From assembly GCF_009914755.1 (NCBI RefSeq), contig NC_060945.1: a stretch of DNA of 64,000 nt; one strand, written 5' to 3'. This document shows, piece by piece, positions 29,321 through 53,900 of the stretch. The position numbers were made by a program, and so were the translations under genes. Source of the stretch: the human T2T-CHM13v2.0 reference genome, Homo sapiens. Positions within the stretch are counted from its first letter, which is position 1. Each line of letters opens with the position of its first letter. Below the pieces are notes generated by a model. The model saw only the letters and a program-made list of their open reading frames with translations. It ran no database searches and was not told where the DNA came from.

Positions 29321-29647
29321 AGCCGGTTCGAGAGCTAGGTAGCAGGCATGGCAGGAGGCGGGGTAGGGGCAGGCAGGGTCGCGAGGGGGCGTGCGGCCGC
29401 CGCGAGCCGCTCTGGGCCGCGTCTGCAGCACCGCCCCTAGCCGCGGCCGGCGGGCTGGGCTGGGGTCGGGGCGGGGGCGGTGCGGCGGGTGCGGGGCTGC
29501 GGAGGGGGCGTGGCGGCCGCCCGCGGGCGGAGAGGGGGCGGGGCGGCGGCAAGGCGCGCGGGCGGGGCGGGGCGCGCCGAGGGGGCGTGGCGCGGCGTCT
29601 GCGCAGCTGCCAGCGCCTTTAAGCCCGGGCTCGCGCTCTCGGACCGT

Positions 29648-29815
29648 GCTTTCGCCGCCTGGGAGCCGTCCGGCGCAGCAGTTTCTAGGTCCCCACTGTC
29701 CCCGCCGTCCCGCCCCTTCGCGTCCCGGGAACCGGCTGGCTTCCGAGCCGCACTCGCCGATCCTCCAGGCATGCCCCGCTACGAGCTGGCTTTAATCCTG
29801 AAAGCCATGCAGCGG
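29648..29815 (+). other. MRPS6: Shared first exon of MRPS6 and SLC5A3 (TSS approximate)
   Basis: TATA-like TTTAA at 29618-29622 about 30 nt upstream, GC boxes, and a strong 5' splice site at 29816. Sharing of exon 1 by the two genes is established knowledge. Confidence 0.8.
29771..29815 (+). CDS. MRPS6: MRPS6 coding part of exon 1 (MPRYELALILKAMQR, 15 codons, phase 0). The rest of the gene is outside the window.
   Basis: ATG in CAGGC-ATG-C context (G at -3). The translation matches the N-terminus of mitochondrial ribosomal protein S6 (bS6 family M.YE motif). It is followed directly by a consensus donor CGG|GTAAGT at 29816. Confidence 0.95.
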
Positions 29816-32800
29816 GTAAGTGACCTTCCCTCAGAGCCGGTCTTCCCGCGCGGGCGCCCCCGCTGCCGCTAGGCCGCCGTCCCCCGCGCGCCCTGGCCGC
29901 GGGACGCCGGGCCTTCCTGCACTCCTCGGAGGAGGCCGGGGCGGCGGGCGGGCGGCGGGCGTCCGCGGGAAGGGGGCGCGCGTGGGCCGGCCGGGCCCGG
30001 CCGCGTGCGCGCGGGAGGCGGGGGTGTGCCTGCGCGTGTGCGCGGTCCGGGAGGGTGTGCCTCGCAAGCGGCCCGCCGGGCGGGGGGCGGGGCGGACCGA
30101 GCGGGCCCCGACCCCGATCCCGGCGCCGGCCCGCGGGAGTCCAGTGGAAGGTCCGCGGGAGGACACGCGCGGGCGCCCAGCCCGACTCCGGCCCGTCCCC
30201 GCCAGTCGTGAAGCTGCCTCGTCGCCGGCCCCGCCGCCGCCGCCTGGTCCGTCCCGCTCCGCCGCCCGCCGGCTGCCGCCGACCGCCTCCGCTCTAGCGC
30301 CCGCCGGCCGCCCGGAACGTCCGCGCCCAATAAAGCGTTCCTCCAAAGCTTGTTTGTGCCGTTGTCTGTATTCCAGTCTCTTGCAATCGCTCTCATGTTA
30401 AAAAAAAATCTTTTGACTTTTCTTTTTCTGACTTCAGCGAAAATCCCGCTCCGGGTGCCCTTAGCCCAGTTTCATTCATCCAAGTTGTGGCCTTTCTTGC
30501 GCCTCCAGAAGACACTTTCTTCCCCCTGCTTTTGATTGATCTTGAGGTAGGGGATTTCAGGTTTGGAGGGATGCTAAGCGAACCAGCGGCCCCTTTCAGG
30601 TGACGGCGTGGCCAAGGACAGGGGCCCGCGGCCCGGAGGCAGCTCACTTCGTCCTCTGTCCTGGGTCATGTACTCCTCAAGTCGTCGCCGAAATCCCCAT
30701 TCTCCCGTGAATTCGGAATTCGGTAACGTAGTTTGGTGTTATGTTTTTTTTTCTCCACCAGGTGTAATAAAACAAAAATCATTGTACCACGTCCGAACTT
30801 TGTAAGCACAGCTTCCTACAGCGCTAGAGGAGTGGACGCATTTTTACGTTTGAAATTAGGCTCCAGGTCAATTGCGAGGAGTATTACCAAGTTTGGTTGA
30901 ACTTAAGCTCAATTGATAAACTAACAATCACGGAGCGTCGGGAGATTGTTAGGAAGTGTGCTTTGCATATTGTTAACTGGGAAGGGACGCCAGTGCCTCT
31001 CTATGAGGTCCAGACAGCCTGGCCAGGCATGCCATTGTGTCCCCCAGCTTGTTCTTCATGGATTTGGAAGAAGTTAAGATAGTATCTGTTCAGCCTCTTG
31101 AATATCCCTTTTGGCCCTCCTCCTTGCTTACCAGCATATGTAACTCCGAAAGGATAGGAGCAGTGAAAACAAAGCATTATTAAAAGGGAAGATTTTTAAT
31201 TAGGTGGAAGTTGTTTAAGCCCTCCCTTCAACTTACGTGTTTTAGGGAATGTGGAACCTGGGAAATTCGTTACTGAAATTCCTTTTGTTTACTTTCCTTG
31301 TCTTGGGGAGGTAGCAGGTGACACTGAAAGAGGCAACCTGTAGGCAATAATATTTGCTCATTCTGTAACCCTTTGAAACCTTTGAAATGAAGACTTGCCC
31401 TCCCCTTTGTTTTTGCCATAGTTGCCAAGTATCTTGGTTAACATGGCTGCAAGTATTAAGTGTATTTCTTTTACCATTTTTTTTTATGTCCTGTAATAAC
31501 ATAGCCTTTGGATGTGGAGCACCCATTTTTCACTCTAGTTCAGATCAACAGAGCGTAATTTGGTTAAAATAATAAATAACCTTCCTTGAAATCTTCGCAT
31601 GAGGGAAGGGGGGCAAAAAAAAGAAAAAAAGCCCTAGAAAGTAGATAATAAAGGTGAACTGCCTCTTGGAGAAAGAGGCCCCATGGCAGTAGATAGAAGG
31701 TTGTAACAGTGGTGACTTATGTACAATGGCGAAGTTATGTTGAGGAGATCCTTGACCTAAATAAAGTAATATTAAACAATAGCTTCTCAGTTATTTGTTC
31801 AAAAACCTATCTGTAGCTTGTAAATGTGGCACAAACACAAAGACTTCCAGGTTTTAGACCAGTTTGCTTGCTTTCAGTTTAGGAAAATAGGATTCTAAAA
31901 TAGGATGAATGTTTGGGGGGAAACGAATTTAAAAAGTTAACTCTAGGCTTATGAAATGAAAAATGCGACTGTGAGCTTGCACACCGGTAGCAGGCCTTGG
32001 AGAAACCACAGTTCTAACCCGAGGCACTTTGTGCTTCTGTTGCAAGAAGGGTATTGAAGCTCCTCAGTTCAAAGTTGCGTATCTTCCACGTTTTTAGATT
32101 CTTAAGTGTATACCTCTTTACCCCTTTAATATGATGTATTTTCCTTTCCTCCCCAAATCATTTGTGCATCTTGGAATTGAGGAAAATGCTGTGTTAGGCA
32201 ACTTTAACAGCGGATATGGAAGTTAAGAAACTATAGTTTTCCAGCCTTTGGACTCCCAGAGCTGCTCTCCTGTTTTTTCTCCGCAGTACTCAGCCTGGAG
32301 AGCATTCTTAGTCTGTTTGGAGAATATTAACTCCTCCCTGTCCTCATTACTTTTTTTTTGACCCTAGCTTGACTCCTTTAAATTGAGCTTGCAAAGTTTT
32401 AAAATTTAAAATACAGGCCCTGTGTTGGCTGTCACAGTATCTGGATTGTAGCAAAGTCAGTTGCGGGAATGCCCATTGAAAGATTTCAGAGTGTATTATG
32501 TAGAGTCAGTCATATTGAACTATACAGTTGTACAATTAGTCACCCAGAAATTCCAATACTATGTTTTTCTCAGTTTGCAAGTAGAAGTTGATTATGAGTA
32601 TCTACTTTTGTACTTCCAAGTTTGGGCATTTAGGAATGTAGTTAACTAGTGTTTCTAAGAAGAAATTTATTTTCAAGTACCATATAGCTTGATTTTTAAA
32701 AAAGTGTGTATATAAAAAAAGTTATTTCTATTTTCTGTTTTAGCGTGAAAAGTAGGTAAAAGTGTGGTTAAATTCTGAAATATGACGGTAAAGTAATGGA

Positions 32801-35160
32801 TGTTGTGAAACTAGGCCTTTAAAGGTGACAAGCAATTTGAAAAACCAGTTGTTTAGACCAGTCTTAGTTCATATTTATAGAAGAGTCTCTGGAATAAAAA
32901 GATTTTAAAAGTCCTGTTACACCCATATCAGATAGCATCAAGAGAGTTTTATTCACTTCTGGAAAACACAGTATTCAAAGGCTGTAATGTGAAAGGACAT
33001 AGCCGCAAAGGAGAGACCAAGGCTGCAGTCCCAGGTAGCCTCATTTCAGTGTGAGGAAGACCTCTGACAATGGAAAAAGAAATGGATTGCCTGTGAGATG
33101 GTGAGGTCTATATCCACCTCCACCCTGCCCCCCCTGCAATGAGAACTTTGAGGTAGATGAGGAGAAGGGGTCATGTGTTTGGTGAGTGAGCTCTCTTGTG
33201 AGTGGGAAAATGGTTGAAGCCCTTTGGTTTCACTTGATAATTAGATTTTAAAGGTTGGTATTTCAGTTAGGTAAAAGACTGAAGTGCCAATACATGAATG
33301 GTAAAGCCGCATACTGTATAATGTAGAGGAGCTTAGGAAAAAAATGAAACTTTGTAGACACTTTTTATGCCTTGGGTATACAGGAAGAAGAAATCTGAGG
33401 AAAGAAATCTGTGCAATACATAAGTATTTTGTGGTTACTTTAGGAACGCTAATTACGTCTCGTGCCCTTTTCCCAGAAGGTGTTCACAGTTGGCATAGAT
33501 TATGAAAGCCCTGGGATAATACTTTTCCTGAAATCTTCTCATTGGCGTTCAGGAATTTTTACATGAAGAATTAAAGGTTAATGGCTTAATAACTAATTCA
33601 CTTGCTAAATGATTCCATTGCATGTACAATAAGATAGCATTTATATATATATATCTTCATATGTTTTTCTAATAGGAATAAAGAAGATAGCTATTTTGGA
33701 AATCTTAAGTTCTTATTAAAACAAACAGTAATTTTTATGTTTAATACTCAACGCAGATTATATTTTACATTTAGATAACTCATTGAAATAGTACTTTGGT
33801 AGGGTAAGGAGTTTTGTGTAATCTGAGTTTGAGTTCTGACTTGGTTTAATTTGAATATAGAAAAGTATAATCAGTTCCTAAAATGTAGAAAACAGTTGGT
33901 TTTCTGGTAGAGTGATGAAGAGTTTTTCTCTAAATGCAAGCCTTTTTTGATTAGAACACCTGGCAAAAGTTTTGTATTTGTTCTAGAGTTCTATTCAAGT
34001 TAGGATGTTCTGAAAGTAATGCCTATGAAGTGCCTGTATTTTAGATACCCTTTGGAGATGGAGGGTGCTAATAAACTGAAGTATGAGTCAGGTCAACCCT
34101 AGGTCCTTGTAGTTTGCTTGGCAAGCATTTGATAACTAGGAAATAGTGAAGTTTCTGCTGTGTGTTGGTGGGAGACATCAGTTCAAACGGAAACATCTAG
34201 CTGTCAAGTGGTCTTTTTTTTCTTCCCATGGGCCCTCCCTAAACAGCTTAGCCTTGTATCTTTAATAATCTCTCTTTGTGTTTTATCTGCTTGAAACCAG
34301 GCAACTTAAAATAGTTACCTAGTAATGGAAGACTTGACCCTGTGAACAATGTTATACTTTCATTTGGTATTAAATTTTCTTGGGTTACAGCTTATTGCCG
34401 CAGCAAGCTATTGAAGAAGGAAGGAGTCCTGTTCCTGCCCCTGAGCTACAGCTAAGGTACAAGGAATGGCTTGGGGGTAAGGAGTCCTTCCTCACCAGAT
34501 ATGGTTTGTATGTATGAAGACTGCTTGTCAGAAGTTGACATTTTGCACTAATTTTTTTTCTTAATTCATGACTCACACATTCAATACTGATGTTTCTAGA
34601 TTTTAAAAATCTAGGTTATATCTAGTATTATATGCAGACTATTGAATCTTCTAACCTTTTAGATTATAAAATCAGTTTCAAAAAATTAAGAGTTCAAAAG
34701 CAATGACGGGAAAATTCTGAAGTAATATTTTTCATCTAGTGCCTTTGCTGTGTTTGTACTACTACATGTTTAACTCATCTAAAAGAAACCTGGAATACCA
34801 TAATGGGGTTTAACATGAAGGTGGAAGGAAGGGTAGAGAACAAATGATAAAATACTGTGTGATTACTCATGTTATAAAAAGTTGTTGCAATTTGATTATC
34901 AGACTTTTCCTATTTAATGTTCTTAGCTTTGTGTTAGAATTTCCAATATACTCATGAGTTTATCTGTTTTTAGTGGAAGGCAATATTTTTAAGACGTGTT
35001 ATCAACACATGTAGTTACCTCTTAGGGGAATCCTTACTTAAGGAATTAGTCAAATGAATGTCTGGTAAGTTATCAATTTGTCTAAAGGAAGAACTACCCT
35101 TGGGTTTGGAAAGTGACAGTTAATTCAGCCTCTTATCCTTTTTGTTGCTTTGAAATTAGA

Positions 35161-35410
35161 GCAAGAGTTGGCAGCCTGTGGCTTCCGGGCCAGATCTGAC
35201 CTGTCACCTATATTTTTGTGGCTTGTGAAGTAGGAAAAGATTTTACAGTTGAATAGGTGGGGAAAAAAACAGCAATACTTTATGGCACTTGAATTTCATA
35301 AAACTTTCACATTTCAGAGTCCATAAGTAAAGTTACATTGGAACATGACCCTGTTCTTTTGTTTATATTTATTATCTAGTCCTTTACAGAAGAAATGTGC
35401 CAGCCCCTGA
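35161..35410. mobile_element. hAT MITE (MER58-like)
   Basis: 'gttggcagcctgtggc...gggccagatctg' ... 'tttacagaagaaatgtgccagcccctg'. Confidence 0.5.
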
Positions 35411-35479
35411 TTTAGAGTATATAGACACAATTTTCTAGGTGCATCATTTTTCTTGGCTTCTTATGCTGCTGTTTTCTGA

Positions 35480-35854
<375 letters not shown>

Positions 35855-38800
35855 TAACAAGCTGACAACTCTGGCATTTTCTGTTCTCTTCTGTGCTGGT
35901 TATGGCCTCCTGGGTATCCCCTTGGCACTGCAAACTCAGTGTGGTTAAGAACTTAATGTGTTGCCTATCCCCAAAGTTGCCTCTGTTATTGCTTATTTCT
36001 GTTTATCGCTTCTCTGTCTTCTGTCATCTGGGGCTGAACAAATGCAGTTCTTTCTTTTCCTGCAGTCTCAATGCCATATAGTCTTCTCTGCCCTAGTTGA
36101 ACTGCTCATGTTGTTTGTTTCTTCCTTGGACTCTTGCAGTTTCTTAGCTGGTCTCCTGACATACTACTGAGGGGAGGATAGCTAATACCTGTAAATACGC
36201 TTGTAGTGCAAATATATGTCCTTGAGATACTTTAAAACACCTAAATAGGTGCACTTATAACAAGGAAATAGTAGAAAGCATTAAGTGATGGCTTTCTGAT
36301 TCCCATACTAATTGATTGTATCAACACTTGCCAAATTACTGCATACTTCTCATTTTCAAATACATGCAGGATGAAGTCACATCCAAGGCTGTCTCAGTAT
36401 GACTCCCAACTTATTTTTTTAACCTCATCTTTCAGTTTTTTTCCACATTTTATATGCCCAGTAAACAAAGTTGTGCAGATTCTTATAAATACCATTACCT
36501 TTTATTTTCTTTGGTGCCGGCATCATGCTGTTTTTCTGTTTGGAACACCCTCCCTTTCCACAATACCCCACCACCTCCATGAAAAACCAGTCTCATGTTC
36601 TTCCAAGTTCATCTTAACTCATTTGGTACATTAAACAAATATCAAGGGCCTGCAACATTAGGAGTATAATAGACTAATCTTTCCTTTGGTTGCATGAATC
36701 TCATCACGTCTCCCATCACATGGATCACTTTCTACTTTGTATTACAGTTAATTGGTGAATATGTTTTACCTCCTTTGCTAGATTACAAATTCTTGAGAGC
36801 TGAGTCTTTCATGTTTGTTCTGCTATGCTTTGCATATATGGTAGATACTTACTAAGCTGCCTTGAGGGGTTACTACTCTCATCTCTATAAAACAGTTATT
36901 TGCTATGATACAGCGTGTTGACCTCGTGCTAGTAGTTTGCTTACAAGTCAGTGCACTTCGCTCACGCTGGGTGAGTTGTATGTTACCAGAAGTTGTGTTG
37001 ATTTCCAAGACTGTTTTATGACAGGTAATCTTGTTTCCGTAAAATAATTTAAATATCATGTGAGCTGATGAAATGAGTGCAAACCTTTGTTTCCTGAAAA
37101 CCAAGTTGGATTCTTTGGGAAGACTTGATAAAAGGTGAGTCATTAAAATAATGACTGTAGAATTAGATATGGCTGAAATAACTCAAAGTTTGGGAAGAAA
37201 AATAACTAGGAGGATTGTGTATGTGGAGTGTTTTACAAGGATCTTTTAAACTTTCCACTTTAATGAAGCTGAAACTGGAAATTGTAGATAATGCCATCTG
37301 TAGATGTCGCTTAGATCAAGCAGAAGGAACTCAAATCATCAGGGAACTCCAGGTCATCGATTCCATTCTCCAAGTGCTTGTCATGACCCCTATATTGAGG
37401 TTGGCAAATAAATGTATGTTTATGTGTTGAATAAAATACTTAATAAAATACTTAAGGTACGTATATATAGTTTTATGACTGGATATGGCTTTGGGTATGA
37501 AGGCTTCTGCTTTATAGAAAAATGCTGATTTTTTTGTTTTCTATTATAAATGAGTAGAAAAACCTTGTAAGATCTGAAATGAAGATACTGGATGTGTTAC
37601 CATAGAATAAACAAAGACTGGCATTGGGAGACTAGAAGGAGCTTTAGAGGCAGATGGGACTGGGTTTTGGATTGTAGCACCTACTTCCTAAGGACTTTAA
37701 CCTTCTGGATCCTCAGTTCCTTCTTTGTAAAATGGAAGTAATTCATTTGGGAGGGTATTTGAAGATAAAGTGGTTATGTGACCTTGGAGGTAGTTAAGTG
37801 TAGTTCTGTCATTAAAGTAGCTTTGTGGTCTTAGGCAAGTCGCTGTGAACTTCATTGCCTAGTTTTTCATTATTCCCAGTTTATTAATGAAGAAACTCTA
37901 AAAGATAAAACTTATTATATCTAAGTTTATTTCATCAGAATCCCAAACTAGATCAAAGCTGAAATACAGTTCTTGTTAAGTAAATGTTTGAATTAGTGGT
38001 GTTGGTGCTTACTACTCTGCTCCCATCTATTATTGCCATGAGGGGTGTGGGCCTGGTTTTGCCAGCTTTTTTTTTCTCTCTTCCTCCTACCAGCCAGAAA
38101 TCCAGATTTTATAGGAAATCTGGTTTTTTTTTTTTTGATGTTGCCAACTAATTGAATACTTAGGTACCATGGATCAAATGTAATGTATCTGTGGGTTAGG
38201 TTGGCTCTCATTTTGTAATCTAGATATTCAGATAATTAGCTGTAGGTTGTCTGTAAATCTCTTAGCATTTATGTTGACAAAGCCCACCTTGTTAATTGGT
38301 CACTGGTTTGCAGTAGGACTGATTTCAGCAATGGCAGGCATATTCAATTCTTGAAAGTATCTATAGTTTCGGATTGTTGGGTTGTATATGTGCATTTAGG
38401 CTAAAATATACATGTAGGCTTCAGAGCTGCACCGTGTAAACTGTGAGGGAGTGACATTCACAGTCCACTTTTTCTTTCAATGTCTGAGTGATATCTTGTT
38501 TTAGGCATGTATTAGTACTATTTGGTTTGTACCCATTGTATTAACCTCTTAGGTGTTTGAAATACTACTGGCATGCAAAGATTGCTTTGCCTAGAAAATA
38601 TTTTTTTTTGCTCAGAGTGTATCTGTGGAATTAAAAATAGTTTACCCATGATCCCTGGAAAATAGTATTACCATGAAAAAAATTCAGGTGCTCTCTTGGT
38701 AAAGATTATAGAGGAGGGAGGTGATGACATTTTTATTTTTGACCAGGCTTTGTGTTTCCATAAAATAGAAGCCAAGTTATTACCTTGACTAACCTTCCTT

Positions 38801-41669
38801 TTTTGTCTTTTTTTTCACTCCCACTCCAGATAGATAACATCAAATTGCAAATAAAACGAACTCAGATCCCAGGTTGTTCTTACGTACGTTTTGGCCCAAG
38901 GTGTAATTGACTTGTTTTGCTTCCCCTTGCAATCATTTTTACTATGATTACAGTCCCAGGTAAGGTAATTTCTGTCCACTTTGGGCATACCTCAGTAGAG
39001 GTTGGTGTAGATGAAAGCTTAAAAATGAAATTGCAAGTGAAAGCACAGACTTAGCAAAACTTTCTTTATTGGAGCCCTCAATCCTCATAAACTGGCATTT
39101 TTCTGCTTCTGCCCCAGAATCGAGAATTCCTGGTTTTGTCTTTGTTTTGACTTGAGTTTTTAAAAGTTTCTCTGTAACACCTACCCTGGAGTGGTTAAGT
39201 GCTTTAATTTTGTCAGGTGAAGAAACCAAGTGCAGTTATGGTAGCCGGGTTGCTGTGGATATAATCCAGTTTGAGAAAATTCTCATTGTGGTGATCAGAA
39301 GTGCAGTGTTGTGGTTGCATTTCAGCTGCTGGGAAGATGCTCTTGCAAATCCATGTGTCGTCTTTGCTTCCGTTAGAAAGGTGCAGAATCAGTGTAAGTT
39401 CCAGATATCTGCTCCCTTTTCATTTTGTGCTCAGATGCCCCGTGTATGAATTCCGAATATAAAACATCTGTTCAGTCTGGTTTTGATTCAGATTTAAGGT
39501 GAATTTCTGTTGCTCAGTTGAAAAGCTAAATTTGAGTGTAGGCTCTGTCAGGCATGTTGTAGGAAAGGTGTATGGTACTGAAGTGTGTGGTTTTGTTTTT
39601 TAACTGCTTGACACTGTTAAGTAAGCAAATGACCCAGTCATGGGTTGTTTTGATTGCCATTCTTCTGTTGGTGTACTGCTTGCCTTCTGTTTTGTTAATA
39701 GTCATATGAGAAAACAGTTGTATGAAGTATAGTATCTTGAAGCTTTAAGACACCAAGTTTCCATTAGGCAGCCTAAGTCTCGCAGACTTTGGTAGCACTG
39801 TTGGTCTCATGGGAATGCCATTCTCATGTGTGGACTAAGTAAGGGCCAGGAGATTTTGCAAATTTTGTGTGTGTAAGAAGATCGAAGAAAACATTTTTCC
39901 TAATGTCACTGTCTTGAGTATTTTATCTGATTAGGATGGACTCATTGGAAACTATTGATAATTTCAAGATTTCTTGTCATCTGGCATACAAAGAAAACAG
40001 TCGTGACCCTATTTCCCTGGATTTTTCTATCCCTCTACTTGTCCTGTGTTTGCAATGCAAGAGGAAAATCCAGCTGCCTTTATAATCTAGAATACCATGT
40101 TTCTGTTTTTATTTCTTAGGTTTAATTCAGGGCGTAATTTCTACCAGTCCCTCCAAATACTGTTAAAGTTACTCTTTTTGTGGTCTTACTTCTTACTTCT
40201 TGAGTGTTATATTCTCCAAACCTTGGAGAAAATTAGAAGGTTTTAAAGTTTTCCAACTGAAAAGTATCTTTCAGAGGAAATACCCTAATTTCTGAATCTT
40301 CTATTTATAACTTGGCCTGGAGAATTATAATCTGGTCTACCAGGAAAGGTGCTTGTGCTTAGGTTTTCTGCCTTAGTCACATGGAAAGATGAGCAGAAGC
40401 GATTTCCTTCTAGAAACAGTTTTTTTCTAGAAACATAAAATTGGAACCAAGTAGACTGAGAACAGAAAAAAAACACAAAGTTGACCTGGTAGGATGTTTT
40501 ACCTCTATAAACCTCATAGTTGCTAGCCTTTGAGGGAGGCTAGATGAGTTGATAATAATGCCTAACCTTAGCAATGGATTGAAGTAGGGGTGCAGGGGTT
40601 ATGTAGGTGTGTATATGTATTTAGGATATATATACACACCTACATATTATACACACACACATATGTACAATTCTCTTGAATCCTCAGCCATCTAAGGTTA
40701 GGTAGAGCTATTTCCATTTTACAAATGGAAAAACTGAAGAATTAAAACACAGACTTGGTCATACGTAATGGTAAATACAGTAGTTTAATGAAATTTTGTA
40801 TTGTACCTATCACTCAGCTTCAACTGTTAATTTCCAGTCTGCTCACCTCTGTTTTCTTTATCTTAAAATTTTTTTCATTAATTTCCCTTGGCTAACATGA
40901 CTAAAAAAATTTCAGACTTAAAGAGCAGTTCATTTAACACTTGTATGATTTTTGCCTAGATCACTAATTGTTAGAATATGCCTTATTTTATCTTTTTTTA
41001 ATCTGCGTTATTTTGAGAGTTGCAGACATCTTGACATACCTTTCTTAGGAATAAGGGCCTTCCTCCTAACCACAACATAGTCATCACATTCAAAACGGAC
41101 ATTGATACGATACTACCACCAAATATTCAATTCATATAGAAATTTACGCTGTTCTTCCAGTAATAGTTTTTAGTGTTTTAATTCAGTATTCAATCAAGGA
41201 TCATATATTTACTTGTTTAGTCTCCTTGAACAGTTCCAAAGCCTTTGTCATTAATAACAGTGGCACTTTGAGGAGTTTTGGAGTCCAGGCCTACTGTTTT
41301 GCAGAAACCCTCACTTTGGAGTTGACTGTAGTTGCGTTTTCATGATTAGAGTTAGATTAGCCATTGTTGACAGGAATGAGTATTTCATAGGGATGTCAAT
41401 GCATCACACCGGGAGGCATACCACTTTGTTAAGCAGTCATTTGGTTAGGTGGCATTCACCAGAATGGGCCATTGTAAATGTACCCTATTTCCCTTTTGTA
41501 TTAAGTGATCTATGGAATAACAAACTTGAGACTGAATATTTTGTTTTCCAACAATCTGCATTGGTTTTAGCATCTGTTGGTGACTGAATCAGTTATTGCA
41601 GGAGTACTTTAAAGCAAACTTAGATATATCATTTCACCTGTAAGTAATTAGTGTATAAGAAATAAGGAC

Positions 41670-42580: not shown

Positions 42581-42614
<34 letters not shown>
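42581..42614 (+). repeat. (TG)n microsatellite
   Basis: Direct reading. Confidence 0.95.
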
Positions 42615-42617
<3 letters not shown>

Positions 42618-43459: not shown

Positions 43460-44075
43460 ATTTAACAAACATTTGAGCACCTGTAATATGTAAGATGGTG
43501 TTCTGGACACTAGGACACATCAGGGAACAACACAGAAAATTCTACCCTCATGGAGTTTACATACATGGTAGTGAGGAGACAGAAGAAACGTTTAAGTTTT
43601 ATAGCGTGTTAGGTGTTGAGTACTATGGATAAATACAAAGTTGGAAGGGAGGCATTGAGATGGTCAGGGAAGTTACTTTTGTGCAAAGACGTAAAAGGAG
43701 AGGAGACAGGTCTTGTGGAAACCTGGGGTTACAAAGTGTTGCCTGCATAGGAAATAGCCAGTCCCAGAGGCTAGTTTGGTCCATTGTGATGAAAGGGTTG
43801 ACTGCTTGCTGTGCTAGTGCCCTGTAGTGGGCCAAGGGCAGAAGCATGGAGACAAGAGGCTGGGACAGTGATCTGGATGAGATGGAATGGTGATTTGAAC
43901 TAAGGTGCTAGTAGTTGTCTTTGATTCTGGATATATTTTAAGTATCGCCAACAGGCTTTGCTGATGGATTGATTGCATGTGGGTTGAGGGAGAAAGTGAG
44001 CAGTCAAGGATGACTAAAATTTTTGGACTGAGCAATAGTGAGGATGAAGTTGCTGTTCTGAGATGGGGAGGATTG
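43460..44075 (-). mobile_element. LINE-2 fragment
   Basis: 'ttaacaaacatttgagcacc...ctaccctcatggagtttaca' and 'tttgctgatggattg...gtcaaggatgact'. Confidence 0.65.
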
Positions 44076-45097
44076 AGAGTAGAACACATTTTTTGGGCAA
44101 GAGCAAATTATTCATACCCCGGAACAACAGGCAACTACAACACTTCATCCATTAAGAGCAGTTGTCCATAAATTTTACTGTGAGAACCCTTGCATTTGTA
44201 GATTGTACAGCTAATTCCTTTAACTTAATGTTTTAAAGTTGTGGGAGTTGATAAAGATTGGCTTAGATAGAATCCTATAGCCTGTGATGACTGGGTCAAG
44301 TATAGAATACACCTTAAGACTTACTATTTTTCCCCCTCTGGTGGAATGACTAATTAACACTGATAAAAAGAATGAAGGCAGAAAGCCTTGAACTTGGATG
44401 GTGAGAACATAGATACATCTGGTCTTACAGCTGACCCATCAGGGCTTTGCTGTATGTGAAGCCTGGGACTTCTTTTTACTTTTAATCTCTTCATTTTATC
44501 CATACACATCCATTCACATGATCACACAAAGATTTCAACTGGTTTTTATCTTACGTGCTGTTTGCAGTCTTACTTTGTTAACAGTTGTTACATATCCATC
44601 TTGTGTATTTTCAAGCACAACTTTTTAAACACGCATGATCTTTTATCAATATCGTTAATGTTTCTTCCTGTCAGTAATGTCCTTTTCACTGAAGGTAGTA
44701 TTGCATAGTGATTAAGGGCAAAAGCTGTTTAGACATATAGATGTGAGTGCACATCCTGGCTGTAACACAGACAGCTGTGGCCTGGGGTGAGTTATACTAC
44801 CTCATGGCTTCAGTTTTCTCATCTGTAAAATGGTCATAATAATTGTACTTATCTCATGATTGTTACAAGGATTAAAGTAATGCACATAAAACTAGACACA
44901 GTACCTAGATGGTGTTAGGACTTAGGTTAGTGTAAGATTTTTTTTTTTTTTTAAATTTCCATTATTTATAACTCACTTATCTTTGATAAACAGTCTTTTA
45001 CAAGCAGATAGTGTTGAGCCTCTTGAATTCTTATTGAGTTACACAAATGTTTGGTTAAGATTACATAGTAATAGGCATTGCTGCTCTGTTATTTCAT

Positions 45098-45452
<355 letters not shown>

Positions 45453-45986
45453 TAGTATCATTCACATAAAAGTTAAAACCAGTAGTAGTTTCATAGTTGT
45501 TCTTCCCTCCCTGACTGCCATATCTACAAGGTCTTATTTCTCTGAGATTTCTATAAAAAAATTCATGATGAGCCAAACTTATTGGTAGAATCAGGTTAAA
45601 ATGAATATATCTTGGGCGGAGTGTATATGGATGAAGTAAATCTGGTGGTTTATGAACTTTTCTAGGTGAATAAGATTTTATTTGAGGAAATGGTTTACTT
45701 TGGAAATTATCCATTCTTAACCCCTCCCCACTCCTGTCCCGGGAGAAACTGATAAAAGTGGAGCTGTTCTGGTGGTAGAGGGTTGGGAGGAGGGCCGCAG
45801 TCCCTCCCTACTCTGCCTCAACTTCACCCATCAGAATACAGCTTCAGCACCATTTGAGTCCAATCAGGGTTTTGTATAATTAATAACTTTTAAAAACTTG
45901 AGGGTGCAAGTTTAATAGAAATGTTTTGTCAAAAAGATTTAAGGGCAAATTCTTTATATTTTAGGGATGGTTAAAACATTACGGTA

Positions 45987-46207
45987 CAGGTTGAATATCC
46001 CGTATCTTAAATGCTTGGGACCAGAAGTGTTTTGGATTGTGGGATATTGCATATTACTTGGTGGCTGAGCATCCCATATCTGAACATCCCAAACCCAAAA
46101 TGCTCCAGTGAGCATTTCCTTTGAGCATCATGTCAGTTCTCAAAAAGTTTTGGATTTGGGAGGAGCATTTCAGATTTTGTATTTTTGCATTAGGGATACT
46201 TAATCTG
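45987..46207. mobile_element. Tigger4a/MER46A-like TcMar MITE
   Basis: TIRs caggttgaatatccc / gggatacttaatctg with TA flanks. Confidence 0.8.
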
Positions 46208-49200
46208 TAGTGTTGTCTTTAGCTCCACTTACAATTTAAAACTGGCTGGAGTTCAGGCCAGTTATATTAGGAAAACCTGTTTTGCTCTTTGTGTTACTGA
46301 TGAACCGCTACAGTATCCTTGCTCCACATTTTTAAAGTAAGCAGGGGTTGAGGACAGTCCTATGTGAGTACACATACACTCTGCATCAAGCGTTAGTAGT
46401 CTATTCCACCACAGGAATTTGCTTTCCTAGAACTTGAGTCAAGGTGACAAAAGTGAAAGCATGTATGAAAAGTCTTAAGAATTTTATATACATTTTTTCT
46501 TTTTGTATTTTACTTGAAGTGATTTAAGTAGGAGCTAATAGTTGATGAGACAGTTGGGAGTCTAAAATGTTTGAGAGAGCTGCATCTTTAATGCATTATT
46601 TTATCTAATTCTTCTATATATAAATAACTTCGGAAGATCCTAATATGCCTTGCACATAGTTGACAGTTTAATTTGAAAGGAACTAATATCACTTCTAGTA
46701 TATTCAGGTTGTAGGGAGTAAACTGACATTTACTGAGCCACCTCCCCATTGCACTGGGCAATACTAGCTTTCTCTGTTACTTATTCCTTATAAATCATAA
46801 GGAGCAAGTTGGTTTCATTTTAAAAGCCAGACAGTTGAGACTTGTTGAGGCTCATAGAGATGAAGTTGTTGCCTGAGATCCTACAGTTAGGAAGTGACGG
46901 AGCATGGAACCCAGCCCTTAAAAACTGTGCTGTTTTCTTCTGTACCGTGCCACCTACATAGATGTGGTACCTACACCCACCTCCCTTCTTACAGAATCAT
47001 GAAATCTGTCTGTTGGGGTGGGGAGAAAACAAGCTTGGGTATGCCCATGTTTTTTGTTTTTGGTAGGTTACACAAAAGTGATTGTAATTCAGGTAATTAG
47101 GTTTTCAGAGGTGTCTGTGTGTTCTATAACCCTTCAATTATTAGCTGGCTAAGTGAATATTTTTCATTTGGATCAGAGGATGAGCAGGGCTCATCAAGCT
47201 TACCATTGACAGAGTGCTGGACTAGGCGTCTCAGATTGTACCTTGAGTGTGTGGTTTGTAAATTGACTCCAAAGCTAAAAGAGGTGGTTGTTTGGTCACG
47301 TTTAAGATTATTGCGTACTACTCTTTGCAGGCCCGCCTGTGTCATTGAACTTATGACTTGAAGCCCTGAGTATAGGAGATAATTTTTCTTGTTCCTTGTT
47401 TGGTTTTTGTGGCAGGTGGTTTTTTATTTTATTATTTTTTTGATAGAGTGCCCATATATCCTGCTGTTTACATATAGTTCCAGAATAAGTTTCTGGTTTG
47501 GAAGATAAATTATATGGTCACCCAGACAGTACTAGAGAGATCTGGTCATGATAACTAATTACATTTTGGTTAACATGGTTATATCACCTGAAGGAGTGCT
47601 TATTTAAATTTGGTCTTACCTTTTTTTCTCTTTCTATTTGGTCAAATGCAGCAAATATTTATATTTACACTTCTCTATTTGGATTAATTCTTCAGTTGCA
47701 ATTTAATTTATCCAGATGCGTGGAATAGAACCAAAACTGCATTCTAATTCTGTGCAAAACAATAAAATACTACTTTCTGAGAAGGATGCCTTCTCTTTTG
47801 GGAAGAAGGGGAATCTGCTCTGTTTCAAAGCACCTTTGTGTTCAAGGTTTGGCTAAATCTGCTCATCACCACTAGGGGACTGTTTCTTTTTGCATTCTAC
47901 AAGTATTACTCCCATTACAGAAGCTTTTTAAGAAAAAAATGGACTACCAAGGAACCCACCTACATGCTTTTCATAACTATACCTATTTTATTGTCTTATA
48001 ATTTTTACTTGAGAGGTTTGCGTGAATGATGAACTGTGACAAAAAGCATATATAAATATAAAAATACAAGTTAAAAAGCCTCATGTTAGCTGAAGATTCT
48101 TCCATGTGTATTCTTATAAAAATAAGGGAACCCTGGACAGTGCTCATTGTATTTTGTTGAAGAAATGTTAACTTCTTTAAAAGGAAGAAAAACATATATA
48201 TATATATATAACATACTGTATATTCAGAACCATTTTTAAGGAATGTAGTTTATCTCTTGAAAGACTGAAATTCAAGGCTGTGACTATGACTAGAGTGTAA
48301 AATATAGCTGCATTGCATTATAGTATTTTATATATTTCTACAAACCAAATTGACCTGTTTTTGGTTTTGTTTTTCCTTTTCCAGTCTTTACCAGGTGCTG
48401 GTCTCTGCATGTGTTTTGTTTAAGTTGGAAAAATCTAGAAACCTACCCACAGACTGGTATGGTATCCAGTGAGAAGGGAACTGTCCGCAGTGGCTTTGAA
48501 GGATCTGAGGAAGCCTAGGCGGAGAGTTGAGAATTCAGCCTTGAGCTAGTGTTAGGCTACTCTCTGCTACCTCTCCTGTGGGCAGAGCGACTTTACTAGA
48601 GAAGTTAGGAGTTAGGGCTAGCATGAGAACTTCATGCAGTTTGAGCATTCATCAGGCAGCAGAATATAGCTTCTATATTTACCTTGCATAAATCAGATTT
48701 GACAATGAAGAACAATGTTACTGATAGTAACAGTGCTTCCCAGTGATTGAGGAAGTGCTTGTTTTCTTTTTCAGCACTTTGTTCTCTGAACAAATAAGCT
48801 GCAGCAGCTACTATGACACATAACCCACCCTATTTCCCCCCCAACGGCCAGATGAAACCAGAAATACCCACTGTGTTTTTCTCTCCCTTCTTTGGAAAGC
48901 ACGTGGTTGCTACTGCCATTGGGAAGAGTGATACCTGATTAGCCAGGTAGCCTTCTGAAAATTGAAACAAGTGGCCTGAGGATGACTTGGATGGCTGTTG
49001 GGTAGCAGAGAGCCCTGGAGGCAGGGTTTCATAACTGCGAACAGCAGTTTTCATTGTAATTGACACAGCAGTTTTCATTGTAATTGACAAGCTTCCCTTA
49101 TGCAGAAACATTTAACGATACCTTTTTAAATAATGTTTACTAGTCATCTGATTAGATTTTATTAAAAATTTAGATGATTCGTCCTACATAATGTCAAAGC

Positions 49201-50935
49201 ATTTGTTTAAAAACTTGGAAGCTTTTGGGGGTGGGGAAGGTGGTCATAGAAATATGATCATCTTCAGGATTTGGCAGGTATGAAGTGATACAAACCTCAA
49301 CTTTTAAGATTTTTTTTTTTTTTTTTGCTTTTCTCTGGCAATCAATCTTATTTATGCCAGCCGTTGACACTTAGAAAGGATTTAAATCACTTTTCATAGC
49401 ATAATTATTGTATTGCTTAATGCTTTAAAAAGGCACGCAGATGGGATTGAGACATTTCTATCCAGGCAGTTTTTTCTGCATTAGACCTAAGAACCTAATT
49501 TTGTAGGGCAGTAGTCTCTAGGCATTATGTTTAGCTCCTTTTGTCAGTGAGAAGTGTGTTGTAAAGTTTCTAATACTGTGGTCTGTTTTGAACGGTTTTG
49601 AGAAGAGGTAGCTTTAGTATAATTTATAGGACTTAAAAGGAAAATGCCTAGAATCATCAGAAAAAGCATGGAAAAACATTCTTCTCTGAGGTTGCCTTAT
49701 TGGAAAAGGAGAAATCATTTAGAAGTTAATGTGTGGAAGGCATTAGGTTGAATAAAAATGTTTTTCGTATTGATCTGTCAGCTGCAATTACAATTAACTG
49801 AAAATTTAGTATTTGTCTCTTTTTCAGGAGAGAAGCCGTCAAATTTTAATACATTTAATTTTAGGTATATTTAAATGTCTGTTTTGCAGAGTGATTATCT
49901 TAATCCAGAACTGAAAAATTCCTGATGGTCCTACTGAAGATTTATCTAATGGTCCACAAATGTCTGTTTTGTTGAGGTTTGGCGGACATAATAATAAATC
50001 ATTTTTTAGTCTTCTGAAAACTTTTCTCCTCCTCCCTCTTTTCTCTGCTTCTTATACCCTTCAACAAAAAGCATTAAAAGGAAAACATAAAATCACGCCT
50101 TTAGTCAGTGCCGTTATCCTCTCAGAGGTTGTTTTGGAAATACTGCGTGATGAAAAGGAAGAGAAGGAAATTGCTTCTTTTAAAGTTTGCTTTTTATCTT
50201 CTTGCAGCATCTTCTAACTGGCAGAAATAATACAATTTTTGAGTTGTTTTGTAAGTTGGATATTTTTAGTTTTGTGTGGAATGTCGTGTTTCCCATTAGG
50301 GCAGGGGGCGTCTCACAAGATCTAGGTTACTGTATGACAACTATATCCATTTACTGGAGTTTAAGAAGCTTTATAACAATACATTTCCAGAGACTAGGCA
50401 GTACTTGGTTTTCTGTATTTAAATTTTCTGAGGGTAGATGATAACATCTAGTAAACACCACCTGCCTGTTCCATCCAGGACCCTAACTGGCCATAAAGTT
50501 ACCCCCAAACTCTCTTAGGATTCATAGTATTTTAAGATTTCATTTTTGTGCCCTTATTACGAATATAATTAGTGTTTTCTCCCCTTTAGGGTGCTTTAAG
50601 ATCTTAGTGCCTGTTCTAATCTGAGACTACCACAGTAAGACAAGAAAGGGCAATGCTGTGGTAGGCAGTTAGCTGCTGAAGTTAGGCCACTTAGTTATGA
50701 GGTTGATGAATTTTTGTCCTTAGTTCAAAATGATAATATTCTCACTGACAAAAGTATCAGCTGTGATCATATAGATTGCTCTTTCCTGTGGAACTGAAGT
50801 GTATTAAAAAAATTTTTTTTTCTTTTTATAAAGAATGTCTTGTTGCGCCGTGTTTGCTAGACTGAAAGTTTCCTCATCACGTGGTGAGACCCTCCTCTAA
50901 TTCAATCTTTGTCTTTTGTCTTTGCTGCCTTGCAG

Positions 50936-53900
50936 GGTTGGTACAGTAGGCTTCACTAGACTTAGCTGCAACTCAGAATTTCTCCTCCAGCACCTGAGTA
51001 AATGCTGATGGTCTTGTGGAGAGTGGATTAAGAGTACGAGCTAAGTTCTCAATCCCAATTAAGAAGCGGAAAATTTAAACTGTCTTCTTCAAAGTTTATC
51101 ACAACCACCACCATCAAGACAGCAAACCAAAGGACAAAGACTTTGACCTGCTGTGTTGCTCTGTGTAGTCCAGTTCACGTATGGTTTACAGACTTGGCTG
51201 GGGTTACTAAAAATAAATAAAAAGTTGGACACTTCTGTCATTGGACGCTATTATTCACAAGTTACCAGAATGAGAGCTGTACTGGACACAGCAGACATTG
51301 CCATAGTGGCCCTGTATTTTATCCTGGTCATGTGCATTGGTTTTTTTGCCATGTGGAAATCTAATAGAAGCACCGTGAGTGGATACTTCCTGGCGGGGCG
51401 CTCTATGACCTGGGTAGCAATTGGTGCCTCTCTGTTTGTGAGCAATATTGGGAGTGAGCACTTCATTGGGCTGGCAGGATCTGGAGCTGCAAGTGGATTT
51501 GCAGTGGGCGCATGGGAATTCAATGCCTTACTGCTTTTACAACTTCTGGGATGGGTTTTCATCCCAATTTACATCCGGTCAGGGGTATATACCATGCCTG
51601 AATACTTGTCCAAGCGATTTGGTGGCCATAGGATTCAGGTCTATTTTGCAGCCTTGTCTCTGATTCTCTATATTTTCACCAAGCTCTCGGTGGATCTGTA
51701 TTCGGGTGCCCTTTTTATCCAGGAGTCTTTGGGTTGGAATCTTTATGTGTCTGTCATCCTGCTCATTGGCATGACTGCTTTGCTGACTGTCACCGGAGGC
51801 CTTGTTGCAGTGATCTACACAGACACTCTGCAGGCTCTGCTCATGATCATTGGGGCACTTACACTTATGATTATTAGCATAATGGAGATTGGCGGGTTTG
51901 AGGAAGTTAAGAGAAGGTACATGTTGGCCTCACCCGATGTCACTTCCATCTTATTGACATACAACCTTTCCAACACAAATTCTTGTAATGTCTCCCCTAA
52001 GAAAGAAGCCCTGAAAATGCTGCGGAATCCAACAGATGAAGATGTTCCTTGGCCTGGATTCATTCTTGGGCAGACCCCAGCTTCAGTATGGTACTGGTGT
52101 GCTGACCAAGTCATCGTGCAGAGGGTCCTTGCAGCCAAAAACATTGCTCATGCCAAAGGCTCTACTCTTATGGCTGGCTTCTTAAAGCTCCTGCCAATGT
52201 TTATCATAGTTGTCCCAGGAATGATTTCCAGGATACTGTTTACTGATGATATAGCTTGCATCAACCCAGAGCACTGCATGCTGGTGTGTGGAAGCAGAGC
52301 TGGTTGCTCCAATATTGCTTACCCACGCCTGGTGATGAAGCTGGTTCCTGTGGGCCTTCGGGGTTTAATGATGGCAGTGATGATTGCAGCTCTGATGAGT
52401 GACTTAGACTCTATCTTTAACAGTGCCAGTACCATATTCACCCTCGATGTGTACAAACTTATCCGCAAGAGCGCAAGCTCCCGGGAGTTAATGATTGTGG
52501 GGAGGATATTTGTGGCATTTATGGTGGTGATCAGCATAGCATGGGTGCCAATCATCGTGGAGATGCAAGGAGGCCAGATGTACCTTTACATTCAGGAGGT
52601 AGCAGATTACCTGACACCCCCAGTGGCAGCCTTGTTCCTGCTGGCAATTTTCTGGAAGCGCTGCAATGAACAAGGGGCTTTCTATGGTGGAATGGCTGGC
52701 TTTGTTCTTGGAGCAGTCCGTTTGATACTGGCCTTTGCCTACCGTGCCCCAGAATGTGACCAACCTGATAATAGGCCGGGCTTCATCAAAGACATCCATT
52801 ATATGTATGTGGCCACAGGATTGTTTTGGGTCACGGGACTCATTACTGTAATTGTGAGCCTTCTCACACCACCTCCCACAAAGGAACAGATTCGAACCAC
52901 CACCTTTTGGTCTAAGAAGAACCTGGTGGTGAAGGAGAACTGCTCCCCAAAAGAGGAACCATACAAAATGCAAGAAAAGAGCATTCTGAGATGCAGTGAG
53001 AATAATGAGACCATCAACCACATCATTCCCAACGGGAAATCTGAAGACAGCATTAAGGGCCTTCAGCCTGAAGATGTTAATCTGTTGGTAACCTGCAGAG
53101 AGGAGGGCAACCCAGTGGCATCCTTAGGTCATTCAGAGGCAGAAACACCAGTTGACGCTTACTCCAATGGGCAAGCAGCTCTCATGGGTGAGAAAGAGAG
53201 AAAGAAAGAAACGGATGATGGAGGTCGGTACTGGAAGTTCATAGACTGGTTTTGTGGCTTTAAAAGTAAGAGCCTCAGCAAGAGGAGTCTCAGAGACCTG
53301 ATGGAAGAGGAGGCTGTTTGTTTACAGATGCTAGAAGAGACTCGGCAAGTTAAAGTAATACTAAATATTGGACTTTTTGCTGTGTGTTCACTTGGAATTT
53401 TCATGTTTGTTTATTTCTCCTTATGAACTTAAGGATATGGTGAGACACTAACTTAAGACAATACTGACTGGTCTTTGGGGAAAAAAAGTTATGTAACTGT
53501 TGCATCTCTCAGGCATTGTTTACGCTGTAGGTTTTAGCCAAATTTTACTTAGCAGAAAATCATCTAATTACAAGACTTTATTTTCCCAGAGATGGATTAA
53601 AGTAAATCTTCAACTTAAGTGAAGCAAAACCTAACAGACTGAATTGTGCAAATGTGGTTTTAAATTTTGCATACCAAAGTAAGAAGAGACCAATTATTCT
53701 CACAGAGCACTTAGAGCAGAATATATGTTAAGTTACCATGAATTAAGGTATACTGTCTGCACTGCCAAGTCTTGGCAGACCTTACCCTGAAGTAGAAGAT
53801 TTGCTCATTTCTAAATTTTTTTTTCTGTCTCTGTAATCCCTCCTACCATTAAGAAAAACTTATTTCTTAGACATTGTACAATCAGTTATGTACTGAAAAT

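What the first reader, a model, noticed from the sequence alone, without database searches (positions are those of the whole stretch)
29771..50959. The MRPS6 start codon becomes a 22-aa hybrid uORF on the SLC5A3 mRNA
Seen: exon 1 ends in phase 0 after MPRYELALILKAMQR. Joining it to the acceptor at 50936 continues GGT TGG TAC AGT AGG CTT CAC TAG, giving MPRYELALILKAMQRGWYSRLH* with the stop at 50957-50959, 310 nt before the SLC5A3 ATG. Both in-frame exon-1 ATGs have G at -3. Established: the two genes share exon 1. Inference: the N-terminus of a mitoribosomal protein is under dual constraint, as the MRPS6 coding start and as an obligatory uORF. SMIT1 would then have to be made by reinitiation or leaky scanning, and a basic/amphipathic micropeptide carrying the MRPS6 N-terminus may be produced and possibly routed to mitochondria.
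Basis: partly seen in the sequence, partly recalled or inferred. Interest (0 to 1): 0.8.

Follow-up and report, generated by a model that had tools for sequence, protein, structure and literature searches.

The report
MRPS6 start codon heads SLC5A3 uORF
The inositol transporter mRNA borrows the first exon of a mitochondrial ribosomal protein gene, so that gene's start codon opens a short 22-codon reading frame ahead of the transporter; this is real but an ordinary by-product of the shared exon, and it is already listed in a 2015 catalogue.

Summary
ATG 29771 opens 15 MRPS6 codons. The 29815|50936 splice adds 7 codons and TAG 50957-59, 310 nt before the SLC5A3 ATG at 51270.

It is not new. Ji et al. 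2015 (eLife, PMC4739776) list this two-block ORF (45 + 24 nt) as a translated uORF of NM_006933, and among uORFs translated more than 3-fold better than their main ORF. That evidence is ambiguous, because 45 of the 69 nt are also the MRPS6 coding start.

The short length is unremarkable: a stop within 8 codons has chance about 0.40.

The most likely origin is that SLC5A3, an intronless retrogene in MRPS6 intron 1, took over the host's promoter and exon 1. The uORF came with them. SMIT1 must then be made by reinitiation or leaky scanning, past two more weak 9-codon uORFs.

Published data argue against ATF4-like control: TE Z-score 0.81 under arsenite against a threshold of 4.

A mitochondrial micropeptide is not supported. 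The N-terminus is kept in mature bS6m, and the peptide is not amphipathic.

Conservation of the stop could not be tested. No vertebrate genomes were available.

The parts
29648..29815 (+). Exon 1, shared by SLC5A3 and MRPS6. It lies in a CpG-island promoter.
   Evidence: Hub annotation. GC 0.79 and CpG o/e 1.01 within +-500 nt of the TSS. PMC5387827 says the genes share an exon that is in the ORF of MRPS6 but not of SLC5A3 (passage).
29771..29815 (+). MRPS6 codons 1-15, which are also the first 15 codons of hybrid uORF1. First AUG of both mRNAs, G at -3 and C at +4.
   Evidence: The first 15 residues are identical in PDB bS6m chains 3j9m_AE, 3jd5_F, 5aj3_F and 6ydp_AF.
29807..29809 (+). Second in-frame ATG (MRPS6 Met13), G at -3. 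It would give a 10-codon version of the uORF.
29816..50935 (+). Intron of 21,120 nt (MRPS6 intron 1 up to the SLC5A3 acceptor). Donor GTAAGT, acceptor TTGCAG.
   Evidence: The same intron is 21,116 nt in the hg19 row of Ji et al. 2015.
50936..50959 (+). Exon-2 tail of uORF1: 7 codons plus TAG at 50957-59. This is the only part of the uORF that is specific to the SLC5A3 mRNA.
   Evidence: It is the 24-nt second block of the Ji et al. 2015 uORF row.
50960..51269 (+). Spacer of 310 nt between the uORF1 stop and the SMIT1 AUG. AT-rich (GC 0.41), with folding not clearly below that of shuffled sequence.
   Evidence: MFE -75.0 against a shuffle mean of -66.0, sd 5.7.
51002..51031 (+). uORF2, 9 codons (a nested ATG at 51008 gives 7 codons). 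Weak contexts: T and C at -3.
   Evidence: It is not in the Ji 2015 list or the Sandmann 2023 3-15 aa list.
51181..51210 (+). uORF3, 9 codons, C at -3 and G at +4.
51270..53426 (+). SLC5A3 (SMIT1) coding sequence, 718 aa, uninterrupted within exon 2.
   Evidence: Pfam SSF PF00474, E = 9.2e-157.
53427..62333 (+). 3' UTR of 8,907 nt, with AATAAA at 62316.
   Evidence: and the hub annotation.

Best explanation
The hybrid uORF is a structural by-product of how SLC5A3 gets expressed.

SLC5A3 has an intronless coding sequence and is catalogued as a retrogene. It sits in sense orientation inside MRPS6 intron 1. It has no CpG-island promoter of its own. It is transcribed from the MRPS6 promoter, and exon 1 is spliced to an acceptor 334 nt upstream of its AUG.

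Exon 1 carries the MRPS6 start codon, so every such mRNA begins with that AUG. The frame runs 7 codons into exon 2 and stops.

Inferred mechanism: scanning 43S complexes meet the MRPS6 AUG first (purine at -3, no G at +4) and many initiate there. The 22-codon ORF is short, ends 310 nt before the SMIT1 AUG, and lies 21 nt downstream of the only exon junction. This permits reinitiation and gives no exon-junction signal for NMD. The rest of SMIT1 synthesis comes from leaky scanning. The two later 9-codon uORFs have weak contexts.

The net effect is probably a constitutive, moderate damping of SMIT1 translation. The peptide itself is most likely an unstable by-product with no function.

The uORF cannot be lost by start-codon mutation, because that would destroy MRPS6.

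Shown: the anatomy, the catalogue listing, the retrogene listing, and the lack of eIF2 resistance. Inferred: initiation frequency, reinitiation, damping, and peptide fate.
For: -
- There is no promoter-like composition in front of exon 2: GC 0.37 and CpG o/e 0.30 in the 1 kb upstream, against 0.79 and 1.01 at the shared TSS.
- SLC5A3 is listed as retrogene retro_hsap_105 with parent SLC5A1 (PMC7290577, passage). The CDS is one uninterrupted 2,157-nt ORF.
- Ji et al. 2015 Supplementary file 1, uORF sheet, lists SLC5A3:NM_006933:131:199 with blocks of 45 and 24 nt. It is also in Supplementary file 3, uORFs with TE more than 3-fold that of the canonical ORF.
- Mrps6 is osmostress-induced in mouse fibroblasts like Slc5a3, as a shared promoter would predict (PMC3378878, passage).
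- SMIT1 is translated despite the uORFs: 369 CDS footprints in HEK293T.
- The stop position needs no selection to explain it (probability 0.40).
- The uORF stop lies downstream of the sole junction.
Against: - Translation of the uORF on the SLC5A3 mRNA itself is not demonstrated. 45 of its 69 nt are also the MRPS6 CDS start.
- In HEK293T the MRPS6 CDS carries 280 footprints on 378 nt, against 369 on 2,157 nt for SLC5A3. That is 4.3-fold denser, so MRPS6 mRNA alone could produce Ji's '>3-fold' figure.
- In SH-SY5Y cells MRPS6 mRNA is 89.6 TPM against 12.0 TPM for SLC5A3. I saw no SLC5A3 uORF entry in that study's supplements, but one of 3 SLC5A3 occurrences was not shown to me.
- The GENCODE-based table of 7,264 Ribo-seq ORFs has no SLC5A3 entry. 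This says little about uORF1, because that catalogue drops ORFs that overlap annotated CDS in frame (passage).
- I could not check TSS usage, splice-junction counts or conservation of the exon-2 tail.
- 'Non-functional peptide' is an absence-of-evidence argument.
Confidence: 0.6

Rival explanations
1. Regulatory uORF of the ATF4/GCN4 type. uORF1 would act as a reinitiation-promoting first uORF, and uORF2 and uORF3 as sinks. When ternary complex is low (eIF2-alpha phosphorylation, for example in hypertonic stress), more ribosomes would skip the sinks and SMIT1 translation would be spared or raised.
For: - The layout is a short first uORF followed by two small uORFs and a long spacer.
- SMIT1 is an osmotic-stress gene.
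- Ji et al. place the uORF among those they call suggestive of Gcn4-like regulation.
- Andreev et al. note that resistant mRNAs carry a uORF of more than 20 codons (passage). This one has 22.
Against: - In HEK293T under arsenite the SLC5A3 TE fell to 0.23 of control, with TE Z-score 0.81. The resistance threshold is Z above 4, and the median repression is 5.4-fold, or 0.185. That is ordinary repression.
- No uORF overlaps the main AUG, unlike ATF4 uORF2.
- uORF2 and uORF3 have weak contexts and are not in the translated lists I could read.
- This is one cell line and one stress. Hypertonicity was not tested.
Confidence: 0.1
2. The uORF is largely silent on the SLC5A3 mRNA. Either most SLC5A3 transcripts do not carry the MRPS6 AUG (a downstream or alternative TSS, or another acceptor), or ribosomes mostly scan past it. 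The catalogue listing would then reflect MRPS6 footprints.
For: - The shared 45 nt make the footprints ambiguous.
- MRPS6 CDS footprint density is 4.3-fold that of the SLC5A3 CDS in HEK293T.
- MRPS6 mRNA is about 7-fold more abundant in SH-SY5Y.
- The AUG lacks G at +4.
- CpG-island promoters often start transcription at dispersed sites (established knowledge).
Against: - RefSeq gives one SLC5A3 transcript with a TSS 123 nt upstream of the AUG (hub annotation). An older version had 131 nt.
- A purine at -3 on the first AUG normally captures a large share of scanning ribosomes (established knowledge).
- The same AUG must work well enough to make MRPS6.
- RibORF called the two-block ORF, not just the exon-1 part.
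Confidence: 0.2
3. Functional micropeptide. The 22-aa product would be stable and act in or on mitochondria through its MRPS6-derived N-terminus.
For: - The peptide has net charge +3.
- Precedent exists for uORF products with function. Andreev et al. conclude that the uORFs of MIEF1 and SLC35A4 encode functional proteins (abstract).
Against: - The 15 shared residues belong to the mature protein. Chain 6nu2_AE (122 aa) begins at Pro2, so they are not a cleavable presequence.
- By my recollection, from no call, these residues correspond to the first beta-strand of the bacterial S6 fold.
- The helical hydrophobic moment is below the shuffle mean.
- The uORF is not in Ji et al.'s list of peptides conserved in mouse.
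- Conservation of the first 15 residues is of the kind Takahashi et al. call 'spurious', that is, owed to another protein's coding sequence (passage).
- The only junction-specific tryptic piece is 5 residues long, so ordinary proteomics could neither have found it nor excluded it.
Confidence: 0.03

Closest known systems
Ordinary AUG-initiated uORFs in mammalian 5' leaders, as catalogued by ribosome profiling (Ji et al. 2015; Andreev et al. 2015)
   Same: A short ORF that starts at the first AUG, ends upstream of the main AUG and is expected to reduce main-ORF initiation. This very ORF is in Ji et al.'s table.
   Different: Its start codon and first 15 codons are also the coding start of a different, essential gene. 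The AUG therefore cannot drift, and its footprints cannot be assigned to one mRNA.
'Spurious' conserved-peptide uORFs, conserved because they encode part of a main-ORF protein in another transcript form (Takahashi et al. 2020, PMC7530721)
   Same: The uORF peptide's conservation is explained by another coding function of the same nucleotides (passage).
   Different: There the other form is a splice variant of the same gene. Here it is a separately named gene (MRPS6). I could not read that paper's supplement to see whether SLC5A3 was handled.
Retrogenes nested in a host intron that acquire the host's promoter and 5' exon by splicing (recalled: Vinckenbosch et al. 2006; not read here)
   Same: An intronless CDS listed as a retrogene, in sense orientation in host intron 1, expressed as host exon 1 plus one large terminal exon.
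   Different: The borrowed exon is coding in the host, so the host's AUG comes along. My one search for this combination (retrogene + host gene + uORF) listed 4 papers. Judged from the listing alone, without opening them, none treats host-derived uORFs.
Cholinergic gene locus CHAT / SLC18A3 (recalled from general knowledge, no call)
   Same: An intronless transporter gene inside the first intron of a host gene, sharing the host's first exon and promoter.
   Different: As I recall it, the shared exon there is non-coding, so no host start codon is imported.
ATF4/GCN4-type delayed-reinitiation leaders
   Same: Several short uORFs stand in front of a stress-related main ORF.
   Different: No uORF overlaps the main AUG, and the main ORF is not eIF2-resistant in the one dataset I could read.

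Membership tests
AUG-initiated uORF | An AUG in the mature mRNA upstream of the annotated main start | tested here: met
   ATG 29771 is mRNA position 124 of a 502-nt leader, using the exon structure from the hub annotation.
AUG-initiated uORF | An in-frame stop upstream of, or overlapping, the main ORF | tested here: met
   TAG 50957-59, 310 nt before ATG 51270.
AUG-initiated uORF | Ribosome occupancy with codon periodicity on this mRNA | tested here: inconclusive
   Listed as translated by RibORF in Ji et al. 2015. However, 45 of 69 nt are shared with the MRPS6 CDS, and I had no raw data for the 24 specific nt.
AUG-initiated uORF | A measurable effect on main-ORF translation | not testable with these tools
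   This needs reporters with ATG mutations.
Conserved-peptide uORF / functional micropeptide | Peptide conservation not explained by another coding function | tested here: not met
   The first 15 residues are explained by MRPS6. The uORF is absent from Ji et al.'s mouse-conserved list. The 7 tail codons could not be aligned across species.
eIF2-resistant (ATF4/GCN4-type) leader | Main-ORF translation is spared when eIF2-alpha is phosphorylated | tested here: not met
   TE fold change 0.23 and TE Z-score 0.81 against a threshold of 4 (Andreev et al. 2015 source data; criteria). One cell line, one stress.
eIF2-resistant (ATF4/GCN4-type) leader | An inhibitory uORF that overlaps the main start (ATF4 type) | tested here: not met
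   All three uORFs end upstream of 51270.
Cleavable mitochondrial presequence | The N-terminal segment is removed from the mature protein | tested here: not met
   PDB chain 6nu2_AE (122 aa) aligns from its residue 1 to query residue 2, so the mature protein keeps Pro2 onward.
Cleavable mitochondrial presequence | A positively charged amphipathic helix | tested here: not met
   Net charge is +3, but the helical hydrophobic moment is 0.179 against a shuffle mean of 0.24, and 67% of 2,000 shuffles are as high or higher.
Retrogene using a host first exon | An intronless CDS, nested in sense orientation in a host intron and spliced from host exon 1 | tested here: met
   A single 2,157-nt ORF within exon 2. 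Exon structure from the hub annotation. Listed as retro_hsap_105. That the paralogues are multi-exon is recalled, not tested.
EJC-dependent NMD target through a uORF | The stop codon lies more than about 50 nt upstream of an exon junction | tested here: not met
   The uORF1 stop lies 21 nt downstream of the only junction, and no junction follows it (hub annotation).

The most novel reading that the evidence does not exclude
A 'locked' uORF that selection has had to work around. SLC5A3 can never lose this AUG without killing MRPS6, so the exon-2 leader may have been shaped to keep the uORF harmless: an early stop downstream of the only junction, a long unstructured spacer, and weak later uAUGs. 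The gene pair would then be a natural, internally controlled read-out of uORF bypass. Both mRNAs share the same cap, leader and first AUG, so the ratio of SMIT1 to MRPS6 translation per mRNA directly measures reinitiation plus leaky scanning. It might also couple osmolyte uptake to mitoribosome supply under osmotic stress.
Probability: 0.12. Interest if true: 0.5.

Novelty: already known. Interest (0 to 1): 0.25.

Why it matters
The practical consequences are modest.

1. Anyone reading Ribo-seq at this locus should know that footprints on 29771-29815 belong to two mRNAs. The published '>3-fold' uORF efficiency for SLC5A3 may simply be MRPS6 translation.

2. ORF catalogues that drop in-frame CDS overlaps will never list this class of uORF. 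Catalogues that keep such overlaps will over-score it.

3. Variants in exon 1 or at the 50936 acceptor, in a locus tied by GWAS to coronary disease and glucose tolerance, could affect both proteins at once.

4. If the 'locked uORF' idea held, the pair would be a convenient endogenous system for measuring reinitiation.

None of this changes current understanding of uORFs.

Tried and rejected
**Literature searches of the held library**
- SLC5A3+MRPS6+uORF: 0 papers.
- SLC5A3+Ribo-seq+uORF: 0.
- MRPS6+uORF: 0.
- SMIT1+uORF: 0.
- SLC5A3+'upstream open reading frame': 4 papers, 3 listed. Judged from titles only, not opened.
- SLC5A3+'ribosome profiling': 3 papers.

The library lacks most subscription journals. 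Buccafusca 2008, Gardiner 2002, Mudge 2022, Chen 2020, Chothani 2022, Johnstone 2016 and Lee 2012 were not held, or my recalled ids failed.

**Supplements without an SLC5A3 uORF**
- Sandmann 2023: 6 files, including the 7,264-ORF table and the 3-15 aa list.
- Crowe 2006: 2 files.
- Chew 2016: 1 small file.
- Raj 2016: 1 small file.
- Rodriguez 2019: 5 files. SLC5A3 was seen only in expression sheets, and a third occurrence was not shown.
- Takahashi 2020: the supplement could not be read.

**Other attempts**
- The 20-residue N-terminal stretch gave 0 Pfam families, because it is too short.
- RNA folding of the leader and spacer showed nothing clearly beyond mononucleotide shuffles.
- A vertebrate alignment of 50936-50959 was not possible. 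No tool here holds vertebrate genomes.
- I did not compute the SMIT1/MRPS6 TE ratio from Andreev's data. RNA reads there are counted over whole transcripts, and I had no MRPS6 mRNA length.
Full report
**Observation**

- ATG 29771 has the context CCAGGC[ATG]C. It opens 15 codons that end in phase 0 at 29815, in front of a GTAAGT donor.
- A second in-frame ATG sits at 29807, also with G at -3.
- The acceptor is TTGCAG|GG at 50935|50936, with 13 of 16 pyrimidines at -20 to -5.
- Joining the exons continues the frame for 7 codons to TAG 50957-59, which gives a 22-codon ORF.
- 310 nt follow before ATG 51270, context ACCAGA[ATG]A.
- That ATG opens a 718-aa ORF matching the Pfam sodium:solute symporter family at E = 9e-157.
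- The leader is 502 nt long.

They form two 9-codon uORFs with weak contexts, and both end before the main AUG.

**Is it more than chance?**

The AUG is present because MRPS6 needs it. The short tail needs no explanation. With the composition of the exon-2 leader, a stop codon falls within 8 codons with probability about 0.40. The other two frames at the acceptor also close after 3 and 23 codons. Whatever the phase of exon 1, a short uORF would have resulted.

**Is it already known?**

That the two genes share an exon, coding in MRPS6 but not in SLC5A3, is in print. PMC5387827 says so, citing Gardiner et al. 2002 (passage).

The uORF itself is in Ji et al. 2015 (eLife, PMC4739776).
[quoted passage not shown] Its uORF sheet has the row SLC5A3:NM_006933:chr21:+:131:199.
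- The row gives two hg19 blocks of 45 and 24 nt, separated by 21,116 nt.
- These are the 45 exon-1 nt and 24 exon-2 nt of this ORF. The window's intron is 21,120 nt.
- The same id appears in Supplementary file 3, uORFs with translational efficiency more than 3-fold that of the canonical ORF. The authors call that class suggestive of Gcn4-like regulation.
- It is not in Supplementary file 2, peptides conserved in mouse.

I found no text in the held library that discusses the ORF as a hybrid with the MRPS6 start. The searches were made, each with 0 papers, where 3 papers were listed and I judged them by title only. The library lacks most subscription journals, and several key papers were not held.

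**How good is the translation evidence?**

It is weaker than the listing suggests, because 45 of the 69 nt are also the MRPS6 coding start.
- In HEK293T (Andreev et al. 2015, source data) the MRPS6 CDS has 280 footprints. The protein is 125 aa, so the CDS is 378 nt.
- The SLC5A3 CDS has 369 footprints on 2,157 nt. MRPS6 is therefore 4.3-fold denser.
- MRPS6 mRNA alone could thus lift the shared segment above Ji's 3-fold line.
- In SH-SY5Y cells MRPS6 mRNA is 89.6 TPM and SLC5A3 is 12.0 TPM. SLC5A3 appeared only in expression sheets in the places shown to me, and one of its three occurrences was not shown.
- The table of 7,264 GENCODE Ribo-seq ORFs in Sandmann et al. 2023 has no SLC5A3 or MRPS6 ORF. 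That catalogue excludes ORFs that overlap annotated CDS in frame (passage), so the absence says nothing about uORF1.

Only P-sites on the 8 exon-2 codons, or junction reads, can settle the question.

**What it most likely is**

- SLC5A3 is listed as a retrogene (retro_hsap_105, parent SLC5A1) in PMC7290577 (passage). Its CDS is one uninterrupted ORF.
- The 1 kb in front of exon 2 has GC 0.37 and CpG o/e 0.30. The shared TSS lies in a CpG island with GC 0.79 and o/e 1.01.
- Mrps6 is osmostress-induced in mouse fibroblasts, as Slc5a3 is.

The simplest reading is that a retrocopy landed in MRPS6 intron 1 and gained expression by splicing from host exon 1. The host's AUG came with the exon.

Formally, the SLC5A3 mRNA is an alternative-terminal-exon product of the MRPS6 transcription unit. 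It has an 8,907-nt 3' UTR that ends 17 nt after an AATAAA.

**Mechanism (inferred from the scanning model)**

- The first AUG has a purine at -3 but C at +4. A large share of ribosomes should start there, and some should leak past.
- The uORF is short, and 310 nt separate its stop from the SMIT1 AUG. This arrangement favours reinitiation.
- The intervening uAUGs have T or C at -3.
- The uORF stop lies 21 nt after the only exon junction, so it gives no exon-junction signal for NMD.
- Folding of the leader and spacer is not clearly stronger than that of shuffled sequence.

I expect moderate, constitutive damping of SMIT1 synthesis. SMIT1 is clearly translated in HEK293T, with 369 CDS footprints.

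**Rivals**

*ATF4/GCN4-like control.* This is disfavoured.
- Under arsenite the SLC5A3 TE fell to 0.23, with Z-score 0.81. The resistance threshold is Z above 4, and the median repression is 5.4-fold.
- No uORF overlaps the main AUG.
- This is one cell line and one stress.

*Mitochondrial micropeptide.* This is not supported.
- The 15 residues are identical in bS6m chains 3j9m_AE, 3jd5_F, 5aj3_F and 6ydp_AF. Chain 7pnt_E has one substitution. Which organism each entry comes from is my recollection, not a tool output.
- Chain 6nu2_AE starts at Pro2, so the segment stays in the mature ribosomal protein and is not a presequence.
- The peptide has net charge +3, but its helical hydrophobic moment is 0.179 against a shuffle mean of 0.24.
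- Its conservation is of the kind Takahashi et al. call spurious.
- Trypsin leaves only a 5-residue junction-specific piece, so standard proteomics is blind to it either way.

*A largely silent uORF.* This would mean an alternative TSS or strong leakiness. It remains possible, and I give it about 0.2.

**Verdict**

The ORF is already in a translated-uORF catalogue.

'Dual constraint' is shown in one direction only, the MRPS6 direction. The micropeptide idea has no support.

The one somewhat original thought is that this uORF is evolutionarily locked, so the gene pair is a natural internal control for uORF bypass. Testing it needs vertebrate alignments and junction-level Ribo-seq, which I could not run.

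Noticed in passing
window 51002-51031 and 51181-51210: There are two further AUG uORFs of 9 codons each in SLC5A3 exon 2, with weak start contexts. They are not in the translated-ORF lists I could read.
   Followed up: partly
window 50945-50949: An AG at 50945-46 is followed directly by TAG. If it were used as an alternative acceptor, a stop codon would come immediately after MRPS6 codon 15. I have no evidence that it is used.
   Followed up: no
window 29816-50935: The intron is 21,120 nt here, but 21,116 nt in the hg19 coordinates of Ji et al.'s row. That is a 4-nt length difference between assemblies somewhere in the intron.
   Followed up: no
literature, PMC10533529: In a mouse insulinoma line, siRNAs aimed at the coding region of either gene lowered both MRPS6 and SLC5A3 protein. 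The authors call the reason unknown. The SLC5A3 CDS lies in MRPS6 intron 1, so an effect on the shared precursor is conceivable.
   Followed up: no
literature, PMC3378878: Mrps6 behaves as an osmostress-induced, mTOR-sensitive gene in mouse fibroblasts, alongside Slc5a3. This fits one shared promoter.
   Followed up: partly
PDB chains 6ydp_AF and 8oip_AE: Two deposited bS6m chain sequences (276 and 376 aa) carry the MRPS6 start at residues 153 and 253. These are long N-terminal extensions or fusions in the deposited sequence. They were not looked into.
   Followed up: no
window 29148-30148: The shared promoter is a strong CpG island, with GC 0.79 and CpG o/e 1.01. The 123-nt leader in front of the AUG is 73% GC.
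   Followed up: partly
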